Positions 7,701 to 37,537 of a stretch of DNA of 64,000 nucleotides are shown here, one piece after another (position 1 is the stretch's first letter; each line of letters opens with the position of its first letter). The notes under the pieces are model-generated. The model was given only the letters and a program-made list of their open reading frames with translations, was not told the origin of the DNA and made no database searches. This stretch comes from Candidatus Hodarchaeota archaeon (GTDB lineage: Archaea > Asgardarchaeota > Heimdallarchaeia > Hodarchaeales > Hodarchaeaceae). Both the position numbers and the translations under genes were made by a program. The stretch is taken from positions 1-64,000 of the forward strand of contig JAEOTC010000086.1 of the NCBI GenBank assembly GCA_016840035.1, written 5' to 3'.

Positions 7701-8292
7701 CTTAACAATTTTTGGGACCATAGATGAGGTATTAGAGGGAAATAACTCGTTCCTTATCATTCCTTCACAGGGGGAAGAGATTATTGACATAAAAATCCGG
7801 CCAAAACATGCTAGTCATCATTCACTCACTTTTATTTTGTTCCACGAGGGTTTATCTTATCAAGAGTATGAACTTTCGTTTCATGTTTCCCCCCATTGGA
7901 TGTCTCCCTCCTTTCTTCTCCTGTTGCTCAATATATTGACGATGCTTTTCATTGTAGTAGCTAGCAATCTCTTGATTCTAAGATACTACCTTAGGAGTAG
8001 ATTTTACTGGTCTTCTCATGCAAGATTGAACCAATTGATTGATCAAATTACCCTGTCAAATTTAGAATTGAGGGAGATAGAAGATCTTGCTAACGGCTCC
8101 ACCGCTCCTTCAAATTACCCTCTTGGTTCCCCCCAACGTCTATATCAAAGAAATTGGCAACCTCCTAATCGGGAAATACTTGAAAGACGTTTTCATGTAC
8201 TTCATGATGAAATTAAACAAAGGAATCCGATTAACAAAGAAAAATTGTCAAAATTGCTCAATGAATGTGAAGAATTACTTTGTATGCATTAG
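4756..8292 (+). CDS. Large surface protein: LamG/concanavalin-like domain, NosD-type right-handed beta-helix, Ig/Fn3-like domains, C-terminal TM and cytoplasmic tail
   Basis: FTLSFWV and GLLDEVRIYNR (LamG); many N..GI.l..s.n repeats and NFWDDW..PD.D.D.IVD.PY (NosD); hydrophobic helix near aa 1055-1080. Confidence 0.85.
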   Translation: MNYSKEDVGKMVSITRSTVSWLCVVCILLPLFPSSISPPSSSNSIHLSSLNTPNENGGYNRSLSEYEIRRSVQDSFFNATEGLVNWWRGEGTATDTVGNAPGEFMGEVAYGPGIAGQAFRLNGIDSFINIPDTPFFNFEFTDFTLSFWVNFASIEGEMILIEKWIEKHGPLSEGWTLTKLVDNTLLFAANPGGCSTPLSFIPLNNWINIVVTRSSGNFEIYWNATSLVSASIPYIVPSTSSMKFGHRGNPSDTPGSLGNSGGFFLDGLLDEVRIYNRGMTADEITYHFENLMSPFTSSLEASSNEDLAALAVSGAGTFQEPYILDNWTVKTLGGSGIYIHDTTAHFIIQNCRIETNSAGNGILLENVAPGTAILTNNSCKFNIQGIEIKNSPSTTLLNNWCVQNMDCGIWLLQSGGCTLTKNTATRNYRGIEVTNSLNTILLNNTCNQNSIGGIWLWAGSSNSRVESNRCQNNTYGIHFNDVNNCTILGNYLFNNVQGFLVQSCSETTFLSNYIAFNTVCGTLVRNSVQITLSNNSFIFNGANASISDDWGGSGLSVIDSINGLISNNLFYNNTFTALKFYFSEGFFITSNSFIKNMHGIPPENVSQVYEFTSPLKEANIFSYNFWDDWIQPDEDNDSIVDYPYLLGGNAVNMDFFPLTTPNQLVANQNHLFFLPEVCSSYKNKIFDQEVHISWIEAIDSYGHSITYTLYYSLDNGREWKIIQSNLTSPVYLWDLANITESYECFIKVMAVCSEEQIENTIVFGVFTIDKFAPQVVLDCKSVIHADDPIHLSVRDMSLVSLSCLWDSSIIANTLSESSHNSSWKSFQVAPLSTEGNHTLTITAIDALGRQTTQLFRLYINSPPVIELLSHQNNSILLMNSQISLDILDETLIDVWFFWDFQIRKSLQHPFKVPSFPSRGFHTLTIEAQDSWMFNSTRKYYFYTLGPIFFELTKPPPSMAYARESFITSLRVRNVELIDLILILTIFGTIDEVLEGNNSFLIIPSQGEEIIDIKIRPKHASHHSLTFILFHEGLSYQEYELSFHVSPHWMSPSFLLLLLNILTMLFIVVASNLLILRYYLRSRFYWSSHARLNQLIDQITLSNLELREIEDLANGSTAPSNYPLGSPQRLYQRNWQPPNREILERRFHVLHDEIKQRNPINKEKLSKLLNECEELLCMH

Positions 8293-8472
8293 TCCTTTTT
8301 TTTATCCGATTTCCAATGGATTGAGATAATCCAAAAAGTGTCAATCCTCTCGTGTTTATCGAAAAATAGCCTTTAAAAGGATTGTACTCGAAAAACGATC
8401 TTTGAGTCCTAAAATTGCTGAATTTTAATACTTCAGATAGTTATCAGATGTGATGATAATTTCGAGAGTTTT

Positions 8473-9807
8473 TCAGGGTTGAGCTGACAGATCGGCTTGT
8501 TTTTGCATAAATAACTTATCTCGGTTCCTTACCCAGCTAATAAGTAACAAGGAAAGAATAACAATATTTATTCCCATTGCGATGATCAGTAACCATCCTC
8601 CTCCATCCTGTTCATAAATAAATCCAGCTATCGGACTTAAAAACACTCCAAATGCCTGTATAGACATTCCTAGAATTGCTACTACTTTTCCTGTATGTTC
8701 ACGAGGAAGTCTTCTTCCGATAGCTCCCCAAGCTATTGTTCTCCAGATTACATCATTACCTGCCTTAATAATAACCGCAATAAATGCCGTACTGGATATA
8801 AGTGTTAAAACTAATTCACTTGATTGAAAATCAATCCAAGTGGGAAGCATCGGAGAATTGAATAATACGAATATGGATAAAGGTAAGAATAAATAAGCTA
8901 AGAACATGATTTTCGCATCATTAGTTGTTCGATCCAGGAGGGCTCCCGCAGCTAATCCCCCAATAACACCTACGATTGTTGACCCTATCATTGTATAGTT
9001 TAAGGTGTTATAATTCATTCCTACTTCTTCATTTAGAAAGAAGTTTTGTGCGAATTGGTAATTTATATCACTGCTTACATCCAAAAGAAATACGACGAAA
9101 AATAGCGGAATAGTTGCTAACATTACTTTAAGACCAGTAGAATACTGTATCACCAAATCTTGAGCAAAACCATTTTGTTCTTTTGTTTTTTCTGCAATTT
9201 CTACATTTGTTTGCTCCAAGAAGAATAACCGAATAAAGAAATCTATCATATTCGCCGTACCTGCTAGGAGAAAGAATTGTCGAAGGCCTTCCACAAAACT
9301 ATCCGTAATTAGGACTCCAACTAGGAGTAGGCCTAGGACTCCAAAAACCCCAGTTAATGTAAAAAGGCTGGTACCAGTTCCCATTCGTTCCTTCGGTAGA
9401 GATTCAAACAAGATTGGATCAATGGATGCCTGACAAAATTGTGCTAGCGAGAAAACTGTCCACACAATTACTAAACTAATGAATGTATCAACAAAAGGCA
9501 TGAGAAACATTGCCATAGCAATGAAAAATTTATTGAACGTCGCCATATACCGTCTATGATGAATGTACTTATCTGCCCAATACCCCCCGAGCATAGTGAA
9601 GAATAGACCAATAAGCATGGCCCAACCATTTGCAATTCCTAATTCTAGATAGTTTATTCCAACATCTCGAAAATATAAATTCAAATATACCCAGGCTGCA
9701 AGAAAAAGCGATCCAGTATAATTTGTAAGCAGAATCACAACGTAATTTCGTGACTGGAAAACTTCTTTCAAGTCTTGAATATACGACGAAGGTTTTATCT
9801 CATTCAT
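8473..9807 (-). CDS. MFS transporter
   Basis: About 12 TM helices; GGYWADKY motif A; ESLPKERMG and LPREHTGK loops. Confidence 0.88.
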   Translation of the reverse strand: MNEIKPSSYIQDLKEVFQSRNYVVILLTNYTGSLFLAAWVYLNLYFRDVGINYLELGIANGWAMLIGLFFTMLGGYWADKYIHHRRYMATFNKFFIAMAMFLMPFVDTFISLVIVWTVFSLAQFCQASIDPILFESLPKERMGTGTSLFTLTGVFGVLGLLLVGVLITDSFVEGLRQFFLLAGTANMIDFFIRLFFLEQTNVEIAEKTKEQNGFAQDLVIQYSTGLKVMLATIPLFFVVFLLDVSSDINYQFAQNFFLNEEVGMNYNTLNYTMIGSTIVGVIGGLAAGALLDRTTNDAKIMFLAYLFLPLSIFVLFNSPMLPTWIDFQSSELVLTLISSTAFIAVIIKAGNDVIWRTIAWGAIGRRLPREHTGKVVAILGMSIQAFGVFLSPIAGFIYEQDGGGWLLIIAMGINIVILSLLLISWVRNRDKLFMQKQADLSAQP

Positions 9808-29891: not shown

Positions 29892-31349
29892 TTATTTCCA
29901 ATTTCTTGTTCGGACAGTTCTCCAGAATATAGCAAGGGTAATAAGAATAGGAAAGAGGGTTAATGATGTAACTGAAGATGTTGGAGGGTTGGATGTAGTC
30001 TGATCAGAATGTCCGATTGTGGTTGTTGGAGAATTTATCGAAGTCTCTGGATTATCTAGTTTAATATATTCAATTTTCCCATCAATCATAGTTAATACAA
30101 CTTCTATGTTCCGGATCTCAGTTTCAGCTATATCTAAAGGATTTTCTGATAATATTACGAGATCAGCCAACTTTCCAAAGCGAATACTTCCTTTAATATT
30201 TTCTTGAAATGTTCCATAGGCTCCATCAATAGTCAAGGAACGAAGTGCCTGTTCAGGTGAAATTGTTTGATTGTACATGAAATCTACAGGAGTCTGATTT
30301 AATGTTCCTATTCGTGTAATAGCCGAAGCCATTATCCCAATAGGAGTTCGAATATCTCCCAGAACATAAGGGTAATCAGTGCTTCCCATGAGATGTACAC
30401 CCTTAGTAAGTAGATCTCTCCACCTTCCAACTAACACTGCCCAATCTCGACCTATTACGGGTTCAATTCGGTCATTCCAATCAGAGTTGAACCATGGGAG
30501 CTGAATACAGCCTAATATTCCTAGGTCCGCTAATCTTTGAATTTGATCATTTCTGAGTAGAACTAAGTGCTCGATACGGTGGCGAGAGGAGTTTGTATTA
30601 TTGCCAATTACAGCACTGTATGCATTTAGGACAATATCTGTAGCATTGGGAATTACACTATGTATTGCTATTTGAAATCCCAAGTCATGCGTTTCTTGTA
30701 CAAGCTGATACATTTCAGATTGATTGATAAAAATTACTGGTTCACGATACCATCCATCCGCGAATAGTTTCACACCAGCAATCCGTAACCGTGGACTATA
30801 TTCATAACCAGGAGTGTAAGCTTGATACCAGTCACCAAATCTATCAAACCCGTATCCTAGGGGAAGATAGCAATTTACTCGAACCTTTAATAAATTCTCA
30901 TTATCAACTGCTTGAAGCTCATTCAAGCGATCCTGATTTACAAATAGCTCTGAAATACTAGTCCACCCATAGGAAACTAAGGATTGCATTACATCATTGA
31001 AATCGGTTATATTGGTTAATCCTCGATCTCCTATCCAGTGTGAATGAGAATCTATAAACCCTGGTACTAAAGTTTGGCCTTTTAAGTCAATTAATTTGGT
31101 TTCAGAATTTGAATATTGAAATGCTTCTACCTCACTTCCAACTGCACTGATTATGTTTCCCATTACAGCCACTGCATCTGCATAAGGTTGATTTGCTTCC
31201 ATTGTTATCACCGTACCATTATAAAATATATAATCTAGGACTGGATCTTGTAAAGGTAGGCCTTCTTCCGATGAGAGTTCTATTGGGGAGAGAGATATTG
31301 TTAGAAAGCTCAGAAAAATCAGGAAATGTAATAAATTTCTAGTTGTCAC
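29892..31349 (-). CDS. Secreted, membrane-anchored YtcJ-like amidohydrolase
   Basis: PGFIDSHSH, KLFADG, RHRIEH, GSTDYP, GKLADLVILS; signal peptide and Thr/Ser linker-TM-basic tail. Confidence 0.88.
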   Translation of the reverse strand: MTTRNLLHFLIFLSFLTISLSPIELSSEEGLPLQDPVLDYIFYNGTVITMEANQPYADAVAVMGNIISAVGSEVEAFQYSNSETKLIDLKGQTLVPGFIDSHSHWIGDRGLTNITDFNDVMQSLVSYGWTSISELFVNQDRLNELQAVDNENLLKVRVNCYLPLGYGFDRFGDWYQAYTPGYEYSPRLRIAGVKLFADGWYREPVIFINQSEMYQLVQETHDLGFQIAIHSVIPNATDIVLNAYSAVIGNNTNSSRHRIEHLVLLRNDQIQRLADLGILGCIQLPWFNSDWNDRIEPVIGRDWAVLVGRWRDLLTKGVHLMGSTDYPYVLGDIRTPIGIMASAITRIGTLNQTPVDFMYNQTISPEQALRSLTIDGAYGTFQENIKGSIRFGKLADLVILSENPLDIAETEIRNIEVVLTMIDGKIEYIKLDNPETSINSPTTTIGHSDQTTSNPPTSSVTSLTLFPILITLAIFWRTVRTRNWK

Positions 31350-31456: not shown

Positions 31457-32071
31457 TTAATTGTCATATTCGAGTCTTTTAGTATAAACTGCTTTTAAAT
31501 CCTTTTGTAATAAGTCAGATGCATATTCTGAATACAATCTCATCGCATCTGCTTCTAATCGCAACCCATAGCAAATTTTATTCTCTTGATAGTCCGGGCA
31601 GGATTGACATCTGTTTTCTCTTTGTATTGTTCGTCGAATGAATTTGAATGCATAAAAACCCAGAATCGATATCAAAAGTCCACTTATCTTGATAATGAGA
31701 TCTGTTTGTATTAAAAATGCAGAAAAAGAAACAGCTATTCCTATACCGGTACCTGATCTTGCAAACCGTTTGATGAACCGCTTATTTAACTTTAATTTTT
31801 CAATCAGTAGAATTGGAACGAGTAGAACTATTCCTATCAATATATATTGAATAGGGAGAAATGTTAGCTGAAAAATGATTAGGATTAGGAGGGTTAATAG
31901 AAATGAGAAATAAACCAAGCTACATCCTTGGCAAATGTAGAGACCTCCAATTTTCCAAATATGTGCCTGGTAGTTCGAGCATATAGGATGATGTGCAAAC
32001 CTGAAACGCCAAGATAATTCCCATCGTTTAATAAACAATTTTATTGCGATTGGAAAATTTATCATATTCAC
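31457..32071 (-). CDS. DUF2085-like membrane protein
   Basis: HHP.C...ICQGC motif, 4 TM, C-terminal C..CP. Confidence 0.55.
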   Translation of the reverse strand: MNMINFPIAIKLFIKRWELSWRFRFAHHPICSNYQAHIWKIGGLYICQGCSLVYFSFLLTLLILIIFQLTFLPIQYILIGIVLLVPILLIEKLKLNKRFIKRFARSGTGIGIAVSFSAFLIQTDLIIKISGLLISILGFYAFKFIRRTIQRENRCQSCPDYQENKICYGLRLEADAMRLYSEYASDLLQKDLKAVYTKRLEYDN

Positions 32072-32073
32072 CG

Positions 32074-32424
32074 TTATCTGACAGGTGACACTCTAACAGC
32101 TGTACCATATGCAATAGTTGCTGTATTTCCACCTTGACCGATTTGATCGCTATCAAACTTTAATCCAATAATTGCATTTGCACCCATGCGATTGGCATCG
32201 CTGAACATACGATTTATTGCTTGATTTCTCGCTTCGAGAGCCATTTCCGTAAAAGCAGTTACTTCTCCACCACAGGAGGACTGACAACCCGCTAAACAGT
32301 CTCCTCCCATTCCACGACTTCTCACTGTTGCACCAAATGCTAATCCTAAATATTGATCGATTTTATATCCTGGAATCTCATCAGTTGTACTGACTAGAAT
32401 CCTTTCTTGCTGTTGATATGCCAT
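32074..32424 (-). CDS. YbjQ/UPF0145 family protein
   Basis: STTDEIPGY.I..YLG, GANAIIG, AYGTAV. Confidence 0.92.
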   Translation of the reverse strand: MAYQQQERILVSTTDEIPGYKIDQYLGLAFGATVRSRGMGGDCLAGCQSSCGGEVTAFTEMALEARNQAINRMFSDANRMGANAIIGLKFDSDQIGQGGNTATIAYGTAVRVSPVR

Positions 32425-32603: not shown

Positions 32604-33218
32604 GTGACCAAAATGAATATTAAGTATAATACACGAATGGTTGTCCTTTTAGCTTTTCTTATTGGAGTAACCATTTCATCTATGGTTCTTATTGGGTTTG
32701 GACAATATGTTAATGCCTCTACAACCAAAACTCAATATCCCAGCTATAGTTCAGTTTCTATGAATCTGTTTGTTGAAGGGATTGATGGTGAGTCAATTAT
32801 TGCGGGTCGAGAAAAGTCAATAACTGTTCTAGGTTATTCTCATAGTATTAGTAATCCATATGATTTGTTTACTGGAGATCTTACAAGCAAACAACATTCC
32901 CCTCTCCGCGTAATGAAGCTAATTGACAAATCAACTCCAAAACTTCAAGAAAAATGTGTTAAAAATGCCGTTATCCCTACTGTAACTTTACGGTTTTATT
33001 TTGAACCTGCTGGATTAAATTTCTACACGATTGAATTAACTAATGCCAAAGTAACATCCTTCCAGGGATTTGGTACGATATCTGCTGATGAAATACCGAG
33101 AGAAACTGTTTCTTTCACCTATGAATCCATTAAATGGACTTATACCGAATATGATGATGCAGGGAATCCCAAAGGAAATGTTGAAGCTGAAGACAATTGG
33201 ACTGATCAGCCAAATTAG
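32604..33218 (+). CDS. hcp: Hcp/TssD (T6SS tube) family protein with N-terminal signal peptide
   Basis: GIDGES...REKSI.VLGYSH; KLIDKSTPKL; FYTIELTNAKVTS; ETVSFTYESIKWTY. Confidence 0.88.
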   Translation: MTKMNIKYNTRMVVLLAFLIGVTISSMVLIGFGQYVNASTTKTQYPSYSSVSMNLFVEGIDGESIIAGREKSITVLGYSHSISNPYDLFTGDLTSKQHSPLRVMKLIDKSTPKLQEKCVKNAVIPTVTLRFYFEPAGLNFYTIELTNAKVTSFQGFGTISADEIPRETVSFTYESIKWTYTEYDDAGNPKGNVEAEDNWTDQPN

Positions 33219-33229
33219 GTTGAGTAATC

Positions 33230-33892
33230 ATGAAAATGAAGAATAAGCAGGTATTAACACTCACTTGCCTTCTTTTTGTCTCATCTTCCCTTTTGACTCT
33301 TACAAATGCCCATATAGTTTCATCTGCTGTTTCTATCCTAGAAGTAACTCAGAATGGTTCAAATATCATTATCACTCTTGATTTTAATCTTTCTATTCCA
33401 CCAGATAGAGGAGAAACAAAATCTTTAGTGGTTTTAATACTGTGTCCTCTTATTCCAGAAGAAACAAATAGTTATAGTGGAGCTATGTTGTTTTTTCGTT
33501 CTCCAGATGGAGATAATCGATTATTTTGGATGTTAGGAGACCCTTTTTCCTTTGAAACCATATGGAATTCGGGGAGTAATCCAGAACACTTCAGAATCGA
33601 TCAGAATCAACTTCTATTGGTATTTATAGAAAATATGCAAACCTCACATTCCAACCTTGAGGTTCAAGTTTTTGCTAAATATCAAGAAATTGAACCAATT
33701 TCTGATTATTCAAGCGATTTTCAACCAATTTTAACGTTGTTTCAACCTGATCTAGAATTCCAAAGATTAGAAGTTGAATTTACAAGTTTGGATCAAACCA
33801 CAACTACTACGAGTGATAAAGGATTCCCAGGCCTATTACTTCCTATAAGCATAGGAATCATCGCACTCTTAGGGATAATACGACGAAAGTAG
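33230..33892 (+). CDS. Secreted protein with C-terminal sorting anchor
   Basis: Signal peptide; TTTTT linker, GFPG, TM, RRK; 11 bp downstream of hcp. Confidence 0.75.
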   Translation: MKMKNKQVLTLTCLLFVSSSLLTLTNAHIVSSAVSILEVTQNGSNIIITLDFNLSIPPDRGETKSLVVLILCPLIPEETNSYSGAMLFFRSPDGDNRLFWMLGDPFSFETIWNSGSNPEHFRIDQNQLLLVFIENMQTSHSNLEVQVFAKYQEIEPISDYSSDFQPILTLFQPDLEFQRLEVEFTSLDQTTTTTSDKGFPGLLLPISIGIIALLGIIRRK

Positions 33893-33908: not shown

Positions 33909-33934
33909 AAAGGAGTAAGCTACCTTATTCCTTT
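33909..33934. terminator. Hairpin between convergent genes
   Basis: AAAGGAGTAAG/CTTATTCCTTT stem followed by T-run. Confidence 0.55.
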
Positions 33935-33940
33935 ATTTTT

Positions 33941-36616
33941 TTACCCAATAAATTCTTTAGAGATCAACGACAATTCTAATTTAAACAGTGATCTTAATGC
34001 TGGAAATTGAGTAACCAAACTAGTAAATAATATCATCAGGAAGATGAATATGAGTGAATTCAATTCAAAAACGGTTTGAAAATAGACCATTATCGGAAAC
34101 ATCGTATTTACAATGACTTCTGTTAGTTGAAATCCAAAGGGAATTCCTAGGATCAACCCAAACAGAGTCAGAATGAGGTATTCTGATGAAAATAAGATGA
34201 TGATTTCTCTATCGGAGGATCCAAGTATCTGCATGGTAAGTAATTCTTTCTTTCTTTCGTGGATATTAAGGAAAACCGTTGTCGATATCGATAAGATCGA
34301 GATAATAATTGCTACAATTATCAGAAGCAGTATTAAAACATTAAATATTTGTAAATAAGCTTTTATTCCTTCTTGAACATTTTCTATGGTTAAAATTGAT
34401 TGAACATCATTCAAAGTATGTAGAAGATCATTAACGACCTGTGATTGGATACTTTTACCATGTGAACTAAGTTTGATGAAGATCTTAGATACCGGTGTTA
34501 GATCGATCCCTAGTTCTGTGAAAAGACTCAATCCTAATAAAGTGCTCATTTTTTCCAAGGAAACATAATTTACGGTTCCCCAAAGCTCTTTTGAGACTCC
34601 ACCTATAGAAATACGGCTATTCTTACTAAGTAATTGTGTACTTGAATTGTAATTAAAGAGATATGAGCTCTCATTAAATTGCTCTTTTAACAAGTTCAGA
34701 GTGAGGTTTTTTCCGTTCTGGAGATAAAACAAACGCAGCCAGAGCTCCTCCTCAAGACTAATAATCCTGGGGTGATTAACCACAATTTCATTTACCTCCT
34801 TCCCTTCGATACCAAGATAATTTACCAATCCTGAAGTAAGTACAATGCTCGATTCTGGATTTTCCCAACGGTCAGAAAATTTCTTATTCCAATTGAAATT
34901 ATGAGTATTAGGGGTTGTGGAATTAAATCCTATTAATACTCCTTCATTTGATTTCTTCATATCTCCAGAAAAGTATTTTACAGGAATTTCCAAAACACAG
35001 TCATAAGTTTCTATCCCATAGGTATCTTTAATTTCCTCTAACTTCCCTATCTCTTGATAGAGAGTAAGATCACCTAATTTTGGTCTTGTAAATGAGACTT
35101 CTAAATCGTAATCTCTTATTTGGCTAAATTCAGTCTCTATCGTGGAAGATGCAGAAATAATCAAGGTAAAGGATAAAAAGAGGATAATCATTGTACTGGC
35201 TGCTCCAATGATATTTGTCAAACTTCTCCAGCCATTTCTGATTGAATTTCGAATTAATAATTTCCAAACAATGTTTAAATGCAATCTATCCAATGAACTG
35301 AATTTTGCGTACTTTCCAATATTTACCATTTTATTACTGTTACTTATGGCTTCTTTTGGGTTTAATCGACTTCCAACCCAAGCAGGATAGAATCCTCCTA
35401 TAATTGAAGCAAAATAACCTAATAAACATGAGTAAATAATAGTAATCTCATCCATTTTTACAGATATATCTGGAATGGAAGAAATAGCACCGAAGAAGCT
35501 AGCTACTACTTGTGTGAATAGCACCCCTACTACAATTCCTAATAATCCTCCAATGGTTGCAATAGATAACATATAAACTGAATAATGGAACAGAATATCG
35601 TTAGGTGTGTACCCCAAGGACAAGAAAACTCCGATTTCATTTTTCTGATGGTAAATGAGTCGATTAAATGTAATAAAAATGGTAAGAATGGCTACTAGAA
35701 GCACAAGAAAGGGTAAAAACTGAGCTATTTCCTTAAATCCATTAATATTGAGTCTTATAAACCAATTAGAGATCTGATATTTTGAGGATACTGGATCAAG
35801 AAGACTAACATTCAATGATTCTGAAATCAACTCAAAATAATCTTCAATTATTTGGTTCTGCTTTTGTTCTGTTGTTTCTGACTTGAATTTCAAGAGAATA
35901 TTATTTACTTTCCCAGTTAGGTTAAACACCGTCTGGATATTGGATAGAGGCATGAAGAAGATCCCATATTGGTTTATTGGGAATATTGAGCCCCACTTAG
36001 AAGGAATAACAACCACATATTCTGGTGAAAAAGCAATTCCTCGCACACTTAGCTCTGTTCTGTCCAAAAAATTGAGATATACTGTATCATTTATTTCCAG
36101 ATTTACTCGTTTAGCAAATTGATTATTCACTATGACTTTGTTTGTATATTCATCCGTAATATTAGGATAACCGTCCGATGTACTAAACGCCTTCCCTTTT
36201 TTCAGAGATAACTGATTAATCTGTTGATCGACTGGCACACTAATATTATATCCAATAACCCTCCCTGGACCCGTAATAGGATTACTCCCCTTGGAGATGT
36301 TATAACTACTTCCCATTATCAACCGAAAATTAAACAACTGGATGGCTGGGTATTCGCTGTGAAAGTCCTCACTGAGTCGTCTCAGAAGACTTTGATTAAT
36401 CCATTGTCCCTCACTGGCTTGAATCTCAAAATCATGAAAATTTTGCTCCTTATAAAATTCCTCGTATGAGTACTCAAGAGACTGGTAACCCATCACCAGA
36501 GCGATGTACGATGCTACTCCGATAATGGTTAAAAGAAGGAGAGAAGTTACTAGTAACTTATTTTTCTTTGAATCTCGAAGGAGGATTCGGAAGAGATGTC
36601 GTGTTATAATTGGCAA
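33941..36616 (-). CDS. MacB/FtsX-family ABC permease (duplicated)
   Basis: Two FtsX segments (QKNEIGVFLSLGY, ERKKELLTMQILG) with large extracellular loops. Confidence 0.9.
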   Translation of the reverse strand: MPIITRHLFRILLRDSKKNKLLVTSLLLLTIIGVASYIALVMGYQSLEYSYEEFYKEQNFHDFEIQASEGQWINQSLLRRLSEDFHSEYPAIQLFNFRLIMGSSYNISKGSNPITGPGRVIGYNISVPVDQQINQLSLKKGKAFSTSDGYPNITDEYTNKVIVNNQFAKRVNLEINDTVYLNFLDRTELSVRGIAFSPEYVVVIPSKWGSIFPINQYGIFFMPLSNIQTVFNLTGKVNNILLKFKSETTEQKQNQIIEDYFELISESLNVSLLDPVSSKYQISNWFIRLNINGFKEIAQFLPFLVLLVAILTIFITFNRLIYHQKNEIGVFLSLGYTPNDILFHYSVYMLSIATIGGLLGIVVGVLFTQVVASFFGAISSIPDISVKMDEITIIYSCLLGYFASIIGGFYPAWVGSRLNPKEAISNSNKMVNIGKYAKFSSLDRLHLNIVWKLLIRNSIRNGWRSLTNIIGAASTMIILFLSFTLIISASSTIETEFSQIRDYDLEVSFTRPKLGDLTLYQEIGKLEEIKDTYGIETYDCVLEIPVKYFSGDMKKSNEGVLIGFNSTTPNTHNFNWNKKFSDRWENPESSIVLTSGLVNYLGIEGKEVNEIVVNHPRIISLEEELWLRLFYLQNGKNLTLNLLKEQFNESSYLFNYNSSTQLLSKNSRISIGGVSKELWGTVNYVSLEKMSTLLGLSLFTELGIDLTPVSKIFIKLSSHGKSIQSQVVNDLLHTLNDVQSILTIENVQEGIKAYLQIFNVLILLLIIVAIIISILSISTTVFLNIHERKKELLTMQILGSSDREIIILFSSEYLILTLFGLILGIPFGFQLTEVIVNTMFPIMVYFQTVFELNSLIFIFLMILFTSLVTQFPALRSLFKLELSLISKEFIG

Positions 36617-36751: not shown

Positions 36752-37537
36752 ATGTTAATGGAAATTTCATTGAAACTTGCGGAGAAAGGGGATGCTAATA
36801 TATTAGCATTAATTTCAAAGAAAGCTTTTGATAGTGATGCCGAAGTTGACGCTCCTGGACCGGGAGGCCCTCCAGGTTATGACTCTAGTTCCTTTCAAGA
36901 AAAAGTAATGAACTTTATGGACTACTACAATATCCTTCTAAATGATACTATTGTTGGGGGGGTTATTGTTGCTGCTAAGAATAGATTTCACCTGATACTT
37001 GAGAGAATTTTTGTTGATCCAGCTTACCATAATAGGGGAATTGCCTCTTGCGCAATGATCGAATTATGGAAAAAGTATCCCAAAGCTCAACTTTGGACAT
37101 TGGGTACCCCAGAATGGAATATTAGAACTCAACATTTTTACGAAAAGCTGGGGTTTAAACAAGTGGGTTGGGAGGTAGGTCCTTTCGATTGGCGAGGAAT
37201 ATGGTTTCAAAAGGAAATGGATCCCTCTTCTCCGTTTATTTTGCAGAAAATCAAAGAATTAAAGAATGGAATGAAAAATATTTCCGTTGAAGGTTTGGTG
37301 AAATCAATTTCTACCACTCGTGATGTAGTTTCTCGTACTACAGGAGAATCCCTTAAGGTAGCTAACGCCAAATTAATGGATAATAGTGGTGAAATTGAAT
37401 TAATTTTGTGGAATGAACAGATCTCTCAATTGAAGGTTGGTGATCGCATAAGAATTGAATTCGGATACATAAAAGATTACCAGGGGGTTAACCAGATAAA
37501 TATCGGATGGTCAGGTAAACTTATTTTGCTGGAATAA
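36752..37537 (+). CDS. GNAT acetyltransferase fused to SSB/RPA-like OB fold
   Basis: FVDPAYHNRGIA and FYEKLGF; C-terminal KIKELK.GMKNISVEG...D.SGEI.L.LW..GY...YQG..QINIG. Confidence 0.85.
   Translation: MLMEISLKLAEKGDANILALISKKAFDSDAEVDAPGPGGPPGYDSSSFQEKVMNFMDYYNILLNDTIVGGVIVAAKNRFHLILERIFVDPAYHNRGIASCAMIELWKKYPKAQLWTLGTPEWNIRTQHFYEKLGFKQVGWEVGPFDWRGIWFQKEMDPSSPFILQKIKELKNGMKNISVEGLVKSISTTRDVVSRTTGESLKVANAKLMDNSGEIELILWNEQISQLKVGDRIRIEFGYIKDYQGVNQINIGWSGKLILLE

What the first reader, a model, noticed from the sequence alone, without database searches (positions are those of the whole stretch)
32604..33892. Orphan T6SS tube protein Hcp with a signal peptide, paired with an anchored surface protein
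Seen: clear Hcp motifs preceded by a hydrophobic leader ending VNA; no sheath, VgrG or baseplate genes in the window; next gene (11 bp away) has a signal peptide and C-terminal anchor, and a shared hairpin follows. Known: canonical Hcp assembles in the cytoplasm without a signal peptide. Inference: Hcp repurposed as a Sec-exported ring or tube, possibly tethered by its partner.
Basis: partly seen in the sequence, partly recalled or inferred. Interest (0 to 1): 0.78.

Follow-up and report, generated by a model that had tools for sequence, protein, structure and literature searches.

The report
Exported Hcp with anchored surface partner
An Asgard (Hodarchaeales-type) archaeon with no injection machinery encodes a genuine copy of the bacterial type VI "syringe tube" protein Hcp behind a conserved export leader, always followed by one surface-anchored partner gene, so the ring-forming fold seems to be reused outside the cell for an unknown job.

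Summary
ORF 32613-33218 (201 aa; GTG 32604 is the alternative start) is a true Hcp: PF05638 97.5 bits, TIGR03344 78.7 bits, and an AlphaFold model that matches solved Hcp1 structures. A basic N-terminus, a 22-residue hydrophobic helix and a V-N-A|S site precede it. This leader is present in all ~30 homologues and is under purifying selection, so it is translated.

Eleven bases downstream lies a 220-aa protein with a signal peptide, a beta-sandwich domain, a Thr stretch and a PG(L/F)+helix+RRK tail. That tail type ends 43 ORFs of this genome, which also encodes a heimdallarchaeosortase.

The partner follows all 23 Hcp genes found in 18 same-genus genomes (this one included). TssC, VgrG, gp25 and phage sheath are absent from this 87%-complete genome. 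TssC is absent from all 83 genomes of the class, and the other three from five high-quality relatives, including a single-contig genome (96% complete by marker genes).

New here: exported Hcp is not only archaeal. Of the 110 nearest single-domain clusters, 91 carry leaders. About 25 clusters are proteins with exactly six tandem Hcp domains, which argues for extracellular rings.

Cleavage versus membrane anchoring, ring formation and function remain inferred. This scan already found the same module in other genomes. I found no publication on it.

The parts
32613..33218 (+). Exported Hcp-fold protein, 201 aa from ATG 32613 (204 aa if GTG 32604 is used). Leader is residues 1-33, a conserved disordered linker 34-47, and the Hcp domain 48-201.
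   Evidence: PF05638 97.5 bits and TIGR03344 78.7 bits. AF2 mean pLDDT 83.5. Foldseek top hits are all Hcp (4W64, 1Y12, 3EAA; target TM 0.73-0.87). The start is aligned with the homologues.
32613..32711 (+). N-terminal leader: basic n-region (K, R), 22-residue hydrophobic helix, c-region G-Q-x-V-N-A followed by S-T. N-A-S is also an N-glycosylation sequon.
   Evidence: Conserved in about 30 homologues with no indels among close ones. dN/dS is 0.17-0.55 against 0.04-0.12 for the domain in nine of ten pairs. Charge distribution predicts N-in/C-out.
33230..33892 (+). Partner surface protein, 220 aa: signal peptide, ~140-aa beta-sandwich domain with N-x-S/T sequons, Thr run, G-F-P-G-L motif, hydrophobic helix, RRK.
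   Evidence: AF2 pLDDT 68 with 8 strands. No specific PDB relative (best Z 6.4). No Pfam family. Lies directly downstream of all 23 Hcp genes in the genus.
33821..33889 (+). C-terminal sorting or anchor signal of the partner (PGF-CTERM-like: PG[L/F], helix, basic tail).
   Evidence: The same tail type ends 43 ORFs of this genome and none of the control internal segments. A heimdallarchaeosortase is encoded at G000:C112 (NF045528, 278 bits, cut-off 130). No hit to any NCBIfam model, C-terminal sorting-signal models included.
33909..33944 (.). Hairpin (11-bp stem) plus T-run between the partner gene and the convergent FtsX-type permease gene. Probably a shared terminator.
   Evidence: dG -13.8 kcal/mol, z -3.1; 1 of 200 shuffles folds as well.

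Best explanation
This is a two-gene cell-surface module of Hodarchaeales-type Asgard archaea.

The first gene makes a genuine Hcp-fold protein. Its conserved N-terminal leader sends the Hcp domain through the Sec translocon to the outer face of the cytoplasmic membrane, in N-in/C-out orientation. The leader is most likely then cut after V-N-A by signal peptidase I. The alternative is that it stays as a membrane anchor.

The second gene is co-transcribed 11 bases downstream. It makes a glycoprotein-like beta-sandwich domain on a short Thr stalk. Its PG(L/F)-helix-basic tail is of the kind that an archaeosortase processes, here the genome's heimdallarchaeosortase, to leave a membrane or lipid anchor.

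I infer that the exported Hcp assembles into the six-fold ring typical of the fold. I also infer that it works at the surface together with the anchored partner, as a scaffold, a binding ring or a cell-contact structure, with no contractile sheath, spike or baseplate.

Shown:
- the Hcp fold;
- the translated, conserved leader;
- the conserved gene pair;
- no match to four contractile-system marker families (TssC, VgrG, gp25, phage sheath);
- the presence of the sortase and of the tail class.

Inferred:
- export itself and cleavage of the leader;
- ring formation;
- physical interaction with the partner;
- the biological role.
For: - Hcp identity and fold.
- Leader conserved in every homologue, with 2-3 K/R before the helix and few after it.
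- Leader under purifying selection and of constant length.
- Partner immediately downstream on the same strand in 8 of 8 archaeal loci and after all 23 Hcp genes in 18 same-genus genomes (this one included). The flanking genes differ between loci.
- Shared hairpin and T-run after the pair.
- No contractile machinery:
  - no TssC, VgrG, gp25 or phage sheath in this genome;
  - TssC absent from 83 of 83 genomes of the class;
  - the other three absent from five high-quality relatives, including single-contig genome G057 (96% complete).
- Heimdallarchaeosortase present, and 43 ORFs carry the same tail type.
- Support for extracellular rings from relatives:
  - 91 of the 110 nearest single-domain clusters carry leaders;
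  - about 25 clusters have exactly six tandem Hcp domains;
  - two of four six-domain proteins scanned against Pfam (P0036, P0048) also carry extracellular-type Big_13 domains, and one of them a dockerin.
- N-terminal fusions to Hcp1 still form hexamers in solved structures that appear among the fold hits (4KSR, 7O42). That these are N-terminal fusions rests on my own knowledge.
Against: - No signal-peptide predictor was available. The 22-residue hydrophobic core is long for a cleaved signal peptide and could be a signal anchor.
- The conserved N-A-S could be a glycosylation sequon rather than a cleavage site.
- Only monomers could be modelled, so ring formation is untested here.
- Nothing shows that the two proteins touch. 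Adjacency alone is the evidence.
- The partner tail does not hit any NCBIfam model.
- In the second Heimdallarchaeia family with this Hcp (f6), the same partner was not detected. One locus has a different 699-aa anchored protein instead.
- The genome is 87% complete.
- The profile used for the wide search included the leader. This may favour leader-bearing hits somewhat, although many matches start after profile position 40.
Confidence: 0.55

Rival explanations
1. Signal-anchor variant. The leader is not cleaved, and the Hcp domain stays tied to the outer face of the membrane by its N-terminal helix. If a ring forms, six helices would hold it flat on the membrane next to the anchored partner.
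For: - The hydrophobic core is 22 residues, long enough to span a membrane, and its length is constant.
- A Gly in the core is nearly invariant.
- The linker to the domain is only about 14 residues.
- N-A-S can be read as a glycosylation sequon, and one divergent homologue keeps N-T-T while losing the Ala.
- All N-termini of Hcp1 rings lie on one face, as in fusion structures 4KSR and 7O42 (plus my own knowledge).
Against: - A helix breaker (G/N-Q) followed by small residues at -3 and -1 (V-x-A) is conserved in most homologues, as in signal peptidase I sites.
- The leader is no more conserved relative to its domain (0.42 against 0.62) than the partner's ordinary signal peptide is (0.29 against 0.38).
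Confidence: 0.3
2. The exported Hcp domain does not form a ring scaffold. It acts as a monomeric or otherwise oligomeric secreted binding protein, adhesin or carrier, and the partner is merely a co-expressed surface protein.
For: No assembly data exist. The partner fold is a generic beta-sandwich with no specific relatives. The function of the whole exported-Hcp class is unknown, and no paper was found.
Against: The domain keeps the canonical Hcp sequence blocks and fold over its full length. The nearest relatives include many proteins with exactly six tandem domains, and others with two or three, which fits a six-fold ring.
Confidence: 0.12
3. It is the tube of an unrecognised or unassembled contractile or phage-tail-like system encoded elsewhere, or a cytoplasmic Hcp translated from the internal Met after the leader.
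For: The genome is only 87% complete. A nearly invariant Met lies at the start of the Hcp domain (residue 50).
Against: - No TssC in 83 genomes of the class.
- No VgrG, gp25 or phage sheath in this genome or in five high-quality relatives, including a single-contig genome (96% complete).
- The 49 upstream codons are under purifying selection and keep signal-like features in every homologue.
- That Met is also an internal residue in canonical Hcps such as those of 7FCF and 3EAA.
Confidence: 0.04

Closest known systems
Hcp / TssD, inner tube protein of bacterial type VI secretion (PF05638, TIGR03344; solved examples A. baumannii Hcp1 4W64, P. aeruginosa Hcp1 1Y12, E. tarda EvpC 3EAA, 7FCF)
   Same: Full-length sequence homology (E 6e-13 to 7FCF) and the same beta-barrel fold (target TM 0.73-0.87). 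The conserved blocks G-I-x-G-E-S, Q-H-x-P-h-x-h-x-K-x-x-D-K-[AS]-[ST]-P-K-L and K-W-T-Y are kept.
   Different: - It carries a conserved N-terminal export leader and a 14-residue linker.
- It is archaeal.
- No TssB/C sheath, VgrG, gp25 or other contractile genes occur in the genome or the class.
- It is always paired with an anchored surface protein.

Canonical Hcp has no signal peptide, assembles in the cytoplasm and leaves only by sheath contraction (established knowledge of T6SS).
Leader-bearing and six-tandem-domain Hcp-like proteins of bacteria (uncharacterised; Verrucomicrobiota and Dehalococcoidia examples L010 and L011; clusters P0036-P0048)
   Same: The Hcp domain is 30-40% identical and sits behind a signal peptide or lipobox. 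The archaeal clade nests among such proteins in the tree.
   Different: The bacterial forms lack the partner gene. Many are fused into chains of six domains, and two of four examples scanned also carry Big_13 or dockerin modules. None seems to be described in the literature I could search.
PGF-CTERM / archaeosortase A (ArtA) surface-protein anchoring of Haloferax and other Euryarchaeota
   Same: The partner ends with a Thr-rich stretch, a PG[F/L] motif, a hydrophobic helix and basic residues. The genome encodes a family-specific archaeosortase (NF045528 heimdallarchaeosortase, 278 bits), and 43 ORFs share this tail.
   Different: The sortase scores only 24 bits against ArtA (TIGR04125, cut-off 75). 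The tail hits no NCBIfam model. Processing is untested.

Membership tests
Hcp/TssD (PF05638, TIGR03344) | Sequence match above the curated cut-offs | tested here: met
   PF05638 97.5 bits (cut-off 23.5); TIGR03344 78.7 bits (cut-off 58.9).
Hcp/TssD (PF05638, TIGR03344) | Hcp beta-barrel fold | tested here: met
   AF2 pLDDT 83.5. The top Foldseek hits are all Hcp, with probability 1.00, rmsd 1.9-3.3 A and target TM 0.73-0.87.
Hcp/TssD (PF05638, TIGR03344) | No signal peptide; assembled in the cytoplasm | tested here: not met
   A conserved, translated basic-hydrophobic-VNA leader precedes the domain in all homologues. No SignalP run was possible.
Hcp/TssD (PF05638, TIGR03344) | Encoded in a genome with T6SS core genes (TssB/C sheath, VgrG, TssE/gp25) | tested here: not met
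   - None in this genome, which is 87% complete.
- TssC in 0 of 83 genomes of the class.
- VgrG, gp25 and phage sheath in 0 of 5 relatives, including a single-contig genome (96% complete).
Hcp/TssD (PF05638, TIGR03344) | Hexameric ring that stacks into a tube inside a sheath | not testable with these tools
   Only monomers can be modelled. The indirect support is relatives with exactly six tandem domains. There is no sheath for a tube.
Sec-type (class I) signal peptide | Basic n-region, hydrophobic h-region, small residues at -3 and -1 | tested here: met
   K4 and R8, then 22 hydrophobic residues, then V-N-A|S, conserved across the family. The h-region is long, so a signal anchor is not excluded. 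Cleavage is not testable here.
Class III (type IV pilin-like) signal peptide | K/R followed by G/A/S at -1 directly before the hydrophobic stretch | tested here: not met
   The residues before the helix are N-T-R-M/L, with no G, A or S at -1 in the homologues.
Archaeosortase substrate (PGF-CTERM-like), for the partner | C-terminal PGF-type motif, transmembrane helix and basic tail after a Thr-rich linker | tested here: met
   T-T-T-T-T-S-D-K-G-F-P-G-L, then a helix, then RRK. Close homologues have G-F-P-G-F. The same tail ends 43 ORFs of the genome and 0 controls.
Archaeosortase substrate (PGF-CTERM-like), for the partner | Cognate sortase in the genome | tested here: met
   NF045528 heimdallarchaeosortase, 278 bits (cut-off 130), at G000:C112, with C-T-G and N-x-x-R motifs.
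Archaeosortase substrate (PGF-CTERM-like), for the partner | Match to a curated CTERM signal model | tested here: inconclusive
   No NCBIfam hit for three partner tails and one neighbouring protein's tail at E <= 10. Such short models are easily missed.

The most novel reading that the evidence does not exclude
Sec-exported Hcp rings are a large, unrecognised class of extracellular ring proteins, found from Asgard archaea to Planctomycetes-like, Verrucomicrobiota and Chloroflexota bacteria. They include single-chain 'hexamers' of six fused domains. In Hodarchaeales the ring forms a dedicated surface device together with a sortase-anchored partner, for example a docking or conduit structure for cell-cell contact. 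It works without any contractile machine.
Probability: 0.4. Interest if true: 0.78.

Novelty: new variant of a known kind. Interest (0 to 1): 0.62.

Why it matters
Hcp is treated as a hallmark of type VI secretion. It is taken to be cytoplasmic, without a signal peptide, and useful only with a sheath and baseplate. Here the same fold is sent out by the general secretion route, in an archaeal lineage close to the origin of eukaryotes, and it is locked to one surface-anchored partner.

The wider search suggests this is one tip of a large exported-Hcp class that includes covalent six-domain chains. Three consequences follow if this is confirmed:

- A T6SS_HCP hit alone would no longer imply a T6SS in genome annotation.
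- A new family of extracellular ring scaffolds would be open to study.
- Asgard archaea would gain a defined surface component, at a time when their surface biology and partner contacts are of great interest and poorly known.

Tried and rejected
Synteny came from the search for related loci and the genome search instead.
- Literature searches found nothing on exported, archaeal or tandem Hcp, or on the heimdallarchaeosortase. The terms covered Hcp with signal peptide and archaea, Hcp-like with Sec, Hcp with Planctomycetes, tandem and hexamer, Asgard with Hcp, PF05638 with signal peptide, and heimdallarchaeosortase.
- Partner function gave no lead:
  - no Pfam or NCBIfam family;
  - only 3 sequence relatives in 5.8 billion proteins;
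  - Foldseek found no match at E <= 0.001;
  - VIA-align gave only generic Ig or CBM-like sandwiches at Z <= 6.4;
  - the ESM Atlas gave no usable hit.
- PF09721 (exosortase) found nothing in the genome, but the NCBIfam model did find the sortase.
- No NCBIfam model (C-terminal sorting-signal models would be among them) hit the partner tails.
- 'Unusually conserved leader' is not supported. Leader-to-domain identity ratios are similar for Hcp and for the partner's signal peptide.
- A pilin-type (class III) signal was rejected by motif.
- A partner homologue next to the bacterial exported Hcps was not found.
- The taxonomy of the six-domain proteins could not be established, because the sources give no names. 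Their N-terminal R-R-L-x-x-E-x-L-E-x-R-x-L-L motif recalls Planctomycetes, but that rests on my memory only.

Full report
**What is there**

The window is contig C28 of a 4.3-Mb, 293-contig, 87%-complete genome. Two ORFs on the + strand fill the stated interval:
- 32604-33218 (204 aa from GTG);
- 33230-33892 (220 aa), 11 bases further on.

Homologues and the identical database protein P0001 start at the ATG at 32613, giving 201 aa. An 11-bp hairpin with a T-run (33909-33934; dG -13.8 kcal/mol, z -3.1) follows the second gene. It faces a convergent FtsX-type permease gene. Upstream, a YbjQ-family gene and a membrane-protein gene run divergently. Other neighbours are an anchored amidohydrolase, a PhzF-like protein, APH-type kinases and GNAT acetyltransferases. 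None is related to secretion machines.

**The first protein is a real Hcp**

- It scores 97.5 bits on PF05638 (cut-off 23.5) and 78.7 bits on TIGR03344 (cut-off 58.9).
- It aligns over the whole domain with solved Hcps (7FCF at E 6e-13, EvpC 3EAA, 4W64).
- An AlphaFold2 model built from 22 homologues has mean pLDDT 83.5. It shows an N-terminal helix (residues 7-29), a disordered stretch (30-41) and a beta-barrel.
- Foldseek returns only Hcp structures at the top: 4W64, 4TV4, 3EAA and 1Y12, with probability 1.00, target-normalised TM 0.73-0.87 and rmsd 1.9-3.3 A.

**The leader is real and translated**

All ~30 homologues of about 200 aa share the same N-terminal layout:
- two to three K/R residues;
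- a hydrophobic stretch of about 22 residues with a nearly invariant Gly;
- a helix breaker (G/N-Q);
- V-N-A followed by S-T;
- a conserved linker of about 14 residues before the first Hcp strand.

Among five close homologues the gene has identical length. The first 33 codons show dN/dS 0.17-0.55, against 0.04-0.12 for the domain in nine of the ten pairs (the very close L003-L004 pair gives 0.78 on few changes). So the leader is coding sequence under weaker but real constraint, as signal sequences are. The charge bias, basic before the helix and nearly none after it, predicts N-in/C-out by the positive-inside rule. The Hcp domain should therefore face outwards.

The leader is not more conserved than expected. 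Leader and domain identities are 0.42 and 0.62 for Hcp, against 0.29 and 0.38 for the partner's signal peptide and domain.

I could not run a signal-peptide predictor. The -3/-1 pattern favours cleavage. The long hydrophobic core, and the fact that N-A-S is also a glycosylation sequon, keep an uncleaved signal anchor open. A pilin-type signal is excluded by motif. The internal Met at residue 50 corresponds to an internal residue of canonical Hcps, and nothing supports it as the start.

**The partner**

ORF B has these parts:
- a signal-like N-terminus;
- a domain of about 140 residues with invariant aromatic residues (F88, W100, P105, W112) and N-x-S/T sequons;
- a Thr run;
- the tail K-G-F-P-G-L, a helix and RRK.

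The AF2 model (pLDDT 68) is an eight-stranded beta-sandwich. Foldseek and VIA-align give only generic sandwich matches, with best Z 6.4. It has no Pfam family and only three relatives in 5.8 billion proteins.

The tail type is common in this genome. Forty-three ORFs end with PG[FYLW], a hydrophobic stretch and a basic tail, mostly T/S-P-G-F-E after Thr-rich linkers, while control internal segments gave none. The genome also encodes a heimdallarchaeosortase (NF045528, 278 bits, cut-off 130) with the Cys and Arg motifs of the exosortase/archaeosortase family. The partner is therefore a plausible sortase substrate. However, no NCBIfam model matched its tail, and processing is untested.

**The pair is conserved and the machine is absent**

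- In 8 of 8 archaeal loci from named Hodarchaeota/Heimdallarchaeota MAGs, the partner lies directly downstream of Hcp. The flanks differ between loci.
- Across 83 genomes of the class, Hcp occurs in 17 of 21 other species of the same genus and in 3 of 12 species of one other family, and nowhere else.
- Comparing coordinates, all 23 Hcp genes in the 18 Hcp-bearing genomes of the genus (this one included) are followed by the partner on the same strand.
- In the other family the partner was not detected. One locus has a different 699-aa anchored protein in that position.
- TssC is absent from all 83 genomes.
- This genome lacks TssC, VgrG, gp25 and phage-sheath matches.
- Five high-quality relatives, including single-contig genome G057 (4.9 Mb, 96% complete by marker genes), lack VgrG, gp25 and sheath.

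A profile search of 1.84 billion representatives found 12,421 Hcp-like proteins.
- Among the best 150, 110 are single-domain proteins. Of these, 91 have an N-terminal hydrophobic leader or lipobox and only 17 have the canonical leaderless form.
- Named examples are a Verrucomicrobiota protein, a Dehalococcoidia lipoprotein with a Pro/Thr linker, and a Promethearchaeota protein.
- About 25 clusters are proteins of 1000-2200 aa with exactly six tandem Hcp domains. Others have two or three.
- Of four of these long proteins scanned against Pfam, two (P0036 and P0048) also carry Big_13 Ig-like domains, and one of those a dockerin.
- Their domains are 30-37% identical to the window protein.
- In a FastTree of the domains, the Asgard family is one clade (support 99), nested among leader-bearing proteins. 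Deeper branches are poorly resolved.

One caveat applies. The profile contained the leader, which may favour such hits, although many alignments begin after profile position 40.

Six fused domains match the six-fold ring of Hcp. This argues that exported members also form rings.

**Mechanism proposed**

Sec export places the Hcp domain outside the membrane, either cleaved or anchored. It assembles into a six-fold ring. The co-expressed partner, anchored by its C-terminus after sortase processing, sits beside or under the ring on a short stalk. A stacked tube is unlikely without a baseplate and sheath. The role (scaffold, binding ring or contact structure) is unknown.

**Prior notes and literature**

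The scan's earlier notes describe the same module in other genomes with the same reading. I re-tested the claims here on this window. I found no paper on it.

Noticed in passing
Proteins P0036-P0048, P0050, P0062, P0063, P0090, P0099, P0101, P0135, P0175; not in the window: About 25 clusters of 1000-2200-aa proteins carry exactly six tandem Hcp domains, and others carry two or three. Of four scanned against Pfam, two (P0036, P0048) also carry Big_13 domains and one of them a dockerin. Many start with an R-R-L-x-x-E-x-L-E-x-R-x-L-L motif. They look like single-chain Hcp hexamers that are secreted. No paper was found.
   Followed up: partly
G000:C112:39948-40265 (L012:1426-2229, - strand): The genome encodes a heimdallarchaeosortase (NF045528, 278 bits). 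Forty-three ORFs genome-wide end with a Thr-rich linker, PG[FYLW], a helix and a basic tail, which is a likely substrate set.
   Followed up: partly
window 29892-31349 (-): An Amidohydro_3 enzyme has a signal-like N-terminus, a Ser/Thr-rich linker and a C-terminal helix with a basic tail, so it is a surface-anchored amidohydrolase. Its tail lacks the PGF motif.
   Followed up: no
window 32074-32424 (-) and 31457-32071 (-): A YbjQ-family gene and a 204-aa Cys-rich multi-pass membrane protein form a pair. The pair recurs at 94% and 68% identity beside the Hcp pair in one relative (L005) but not in the other loci.
   Followed up: partly
L014:819-2918 (+) (G042:C249): In a second Heimdallarchaeia family, the leader-bearing Hcp is followed by a 699-aa signal-bearing protein with a Gly-rich C-terminal anchor, not by the 220-aa partner.
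   Followed up: no
L017:2094-2573 (+) (G055:C1:1008587-1009063): A partner-like gene (E 5e-36) lies without an adjacent Hcp, directly after a masked (N) stretch. Its start and any upstream Hcp cannot be read.
   Followed up: no
L011:7109-7651 (+) and 7758-8504 (+): In a Dehalococcoidia MAG, a lipobox-bearing Hcp with a Pro/Thr linker sits next to another small lipoprotein. This is a bacterial exported-Hcp locus with a different neighbour.
   Followed up: no
window 36752-37537 (+): A GNAT acetyltransferase is fused to a C-terminal OB-fold (tRNA_anti-codon / RPA-like) domain, which is an unusual architecture.
   Followed up: no
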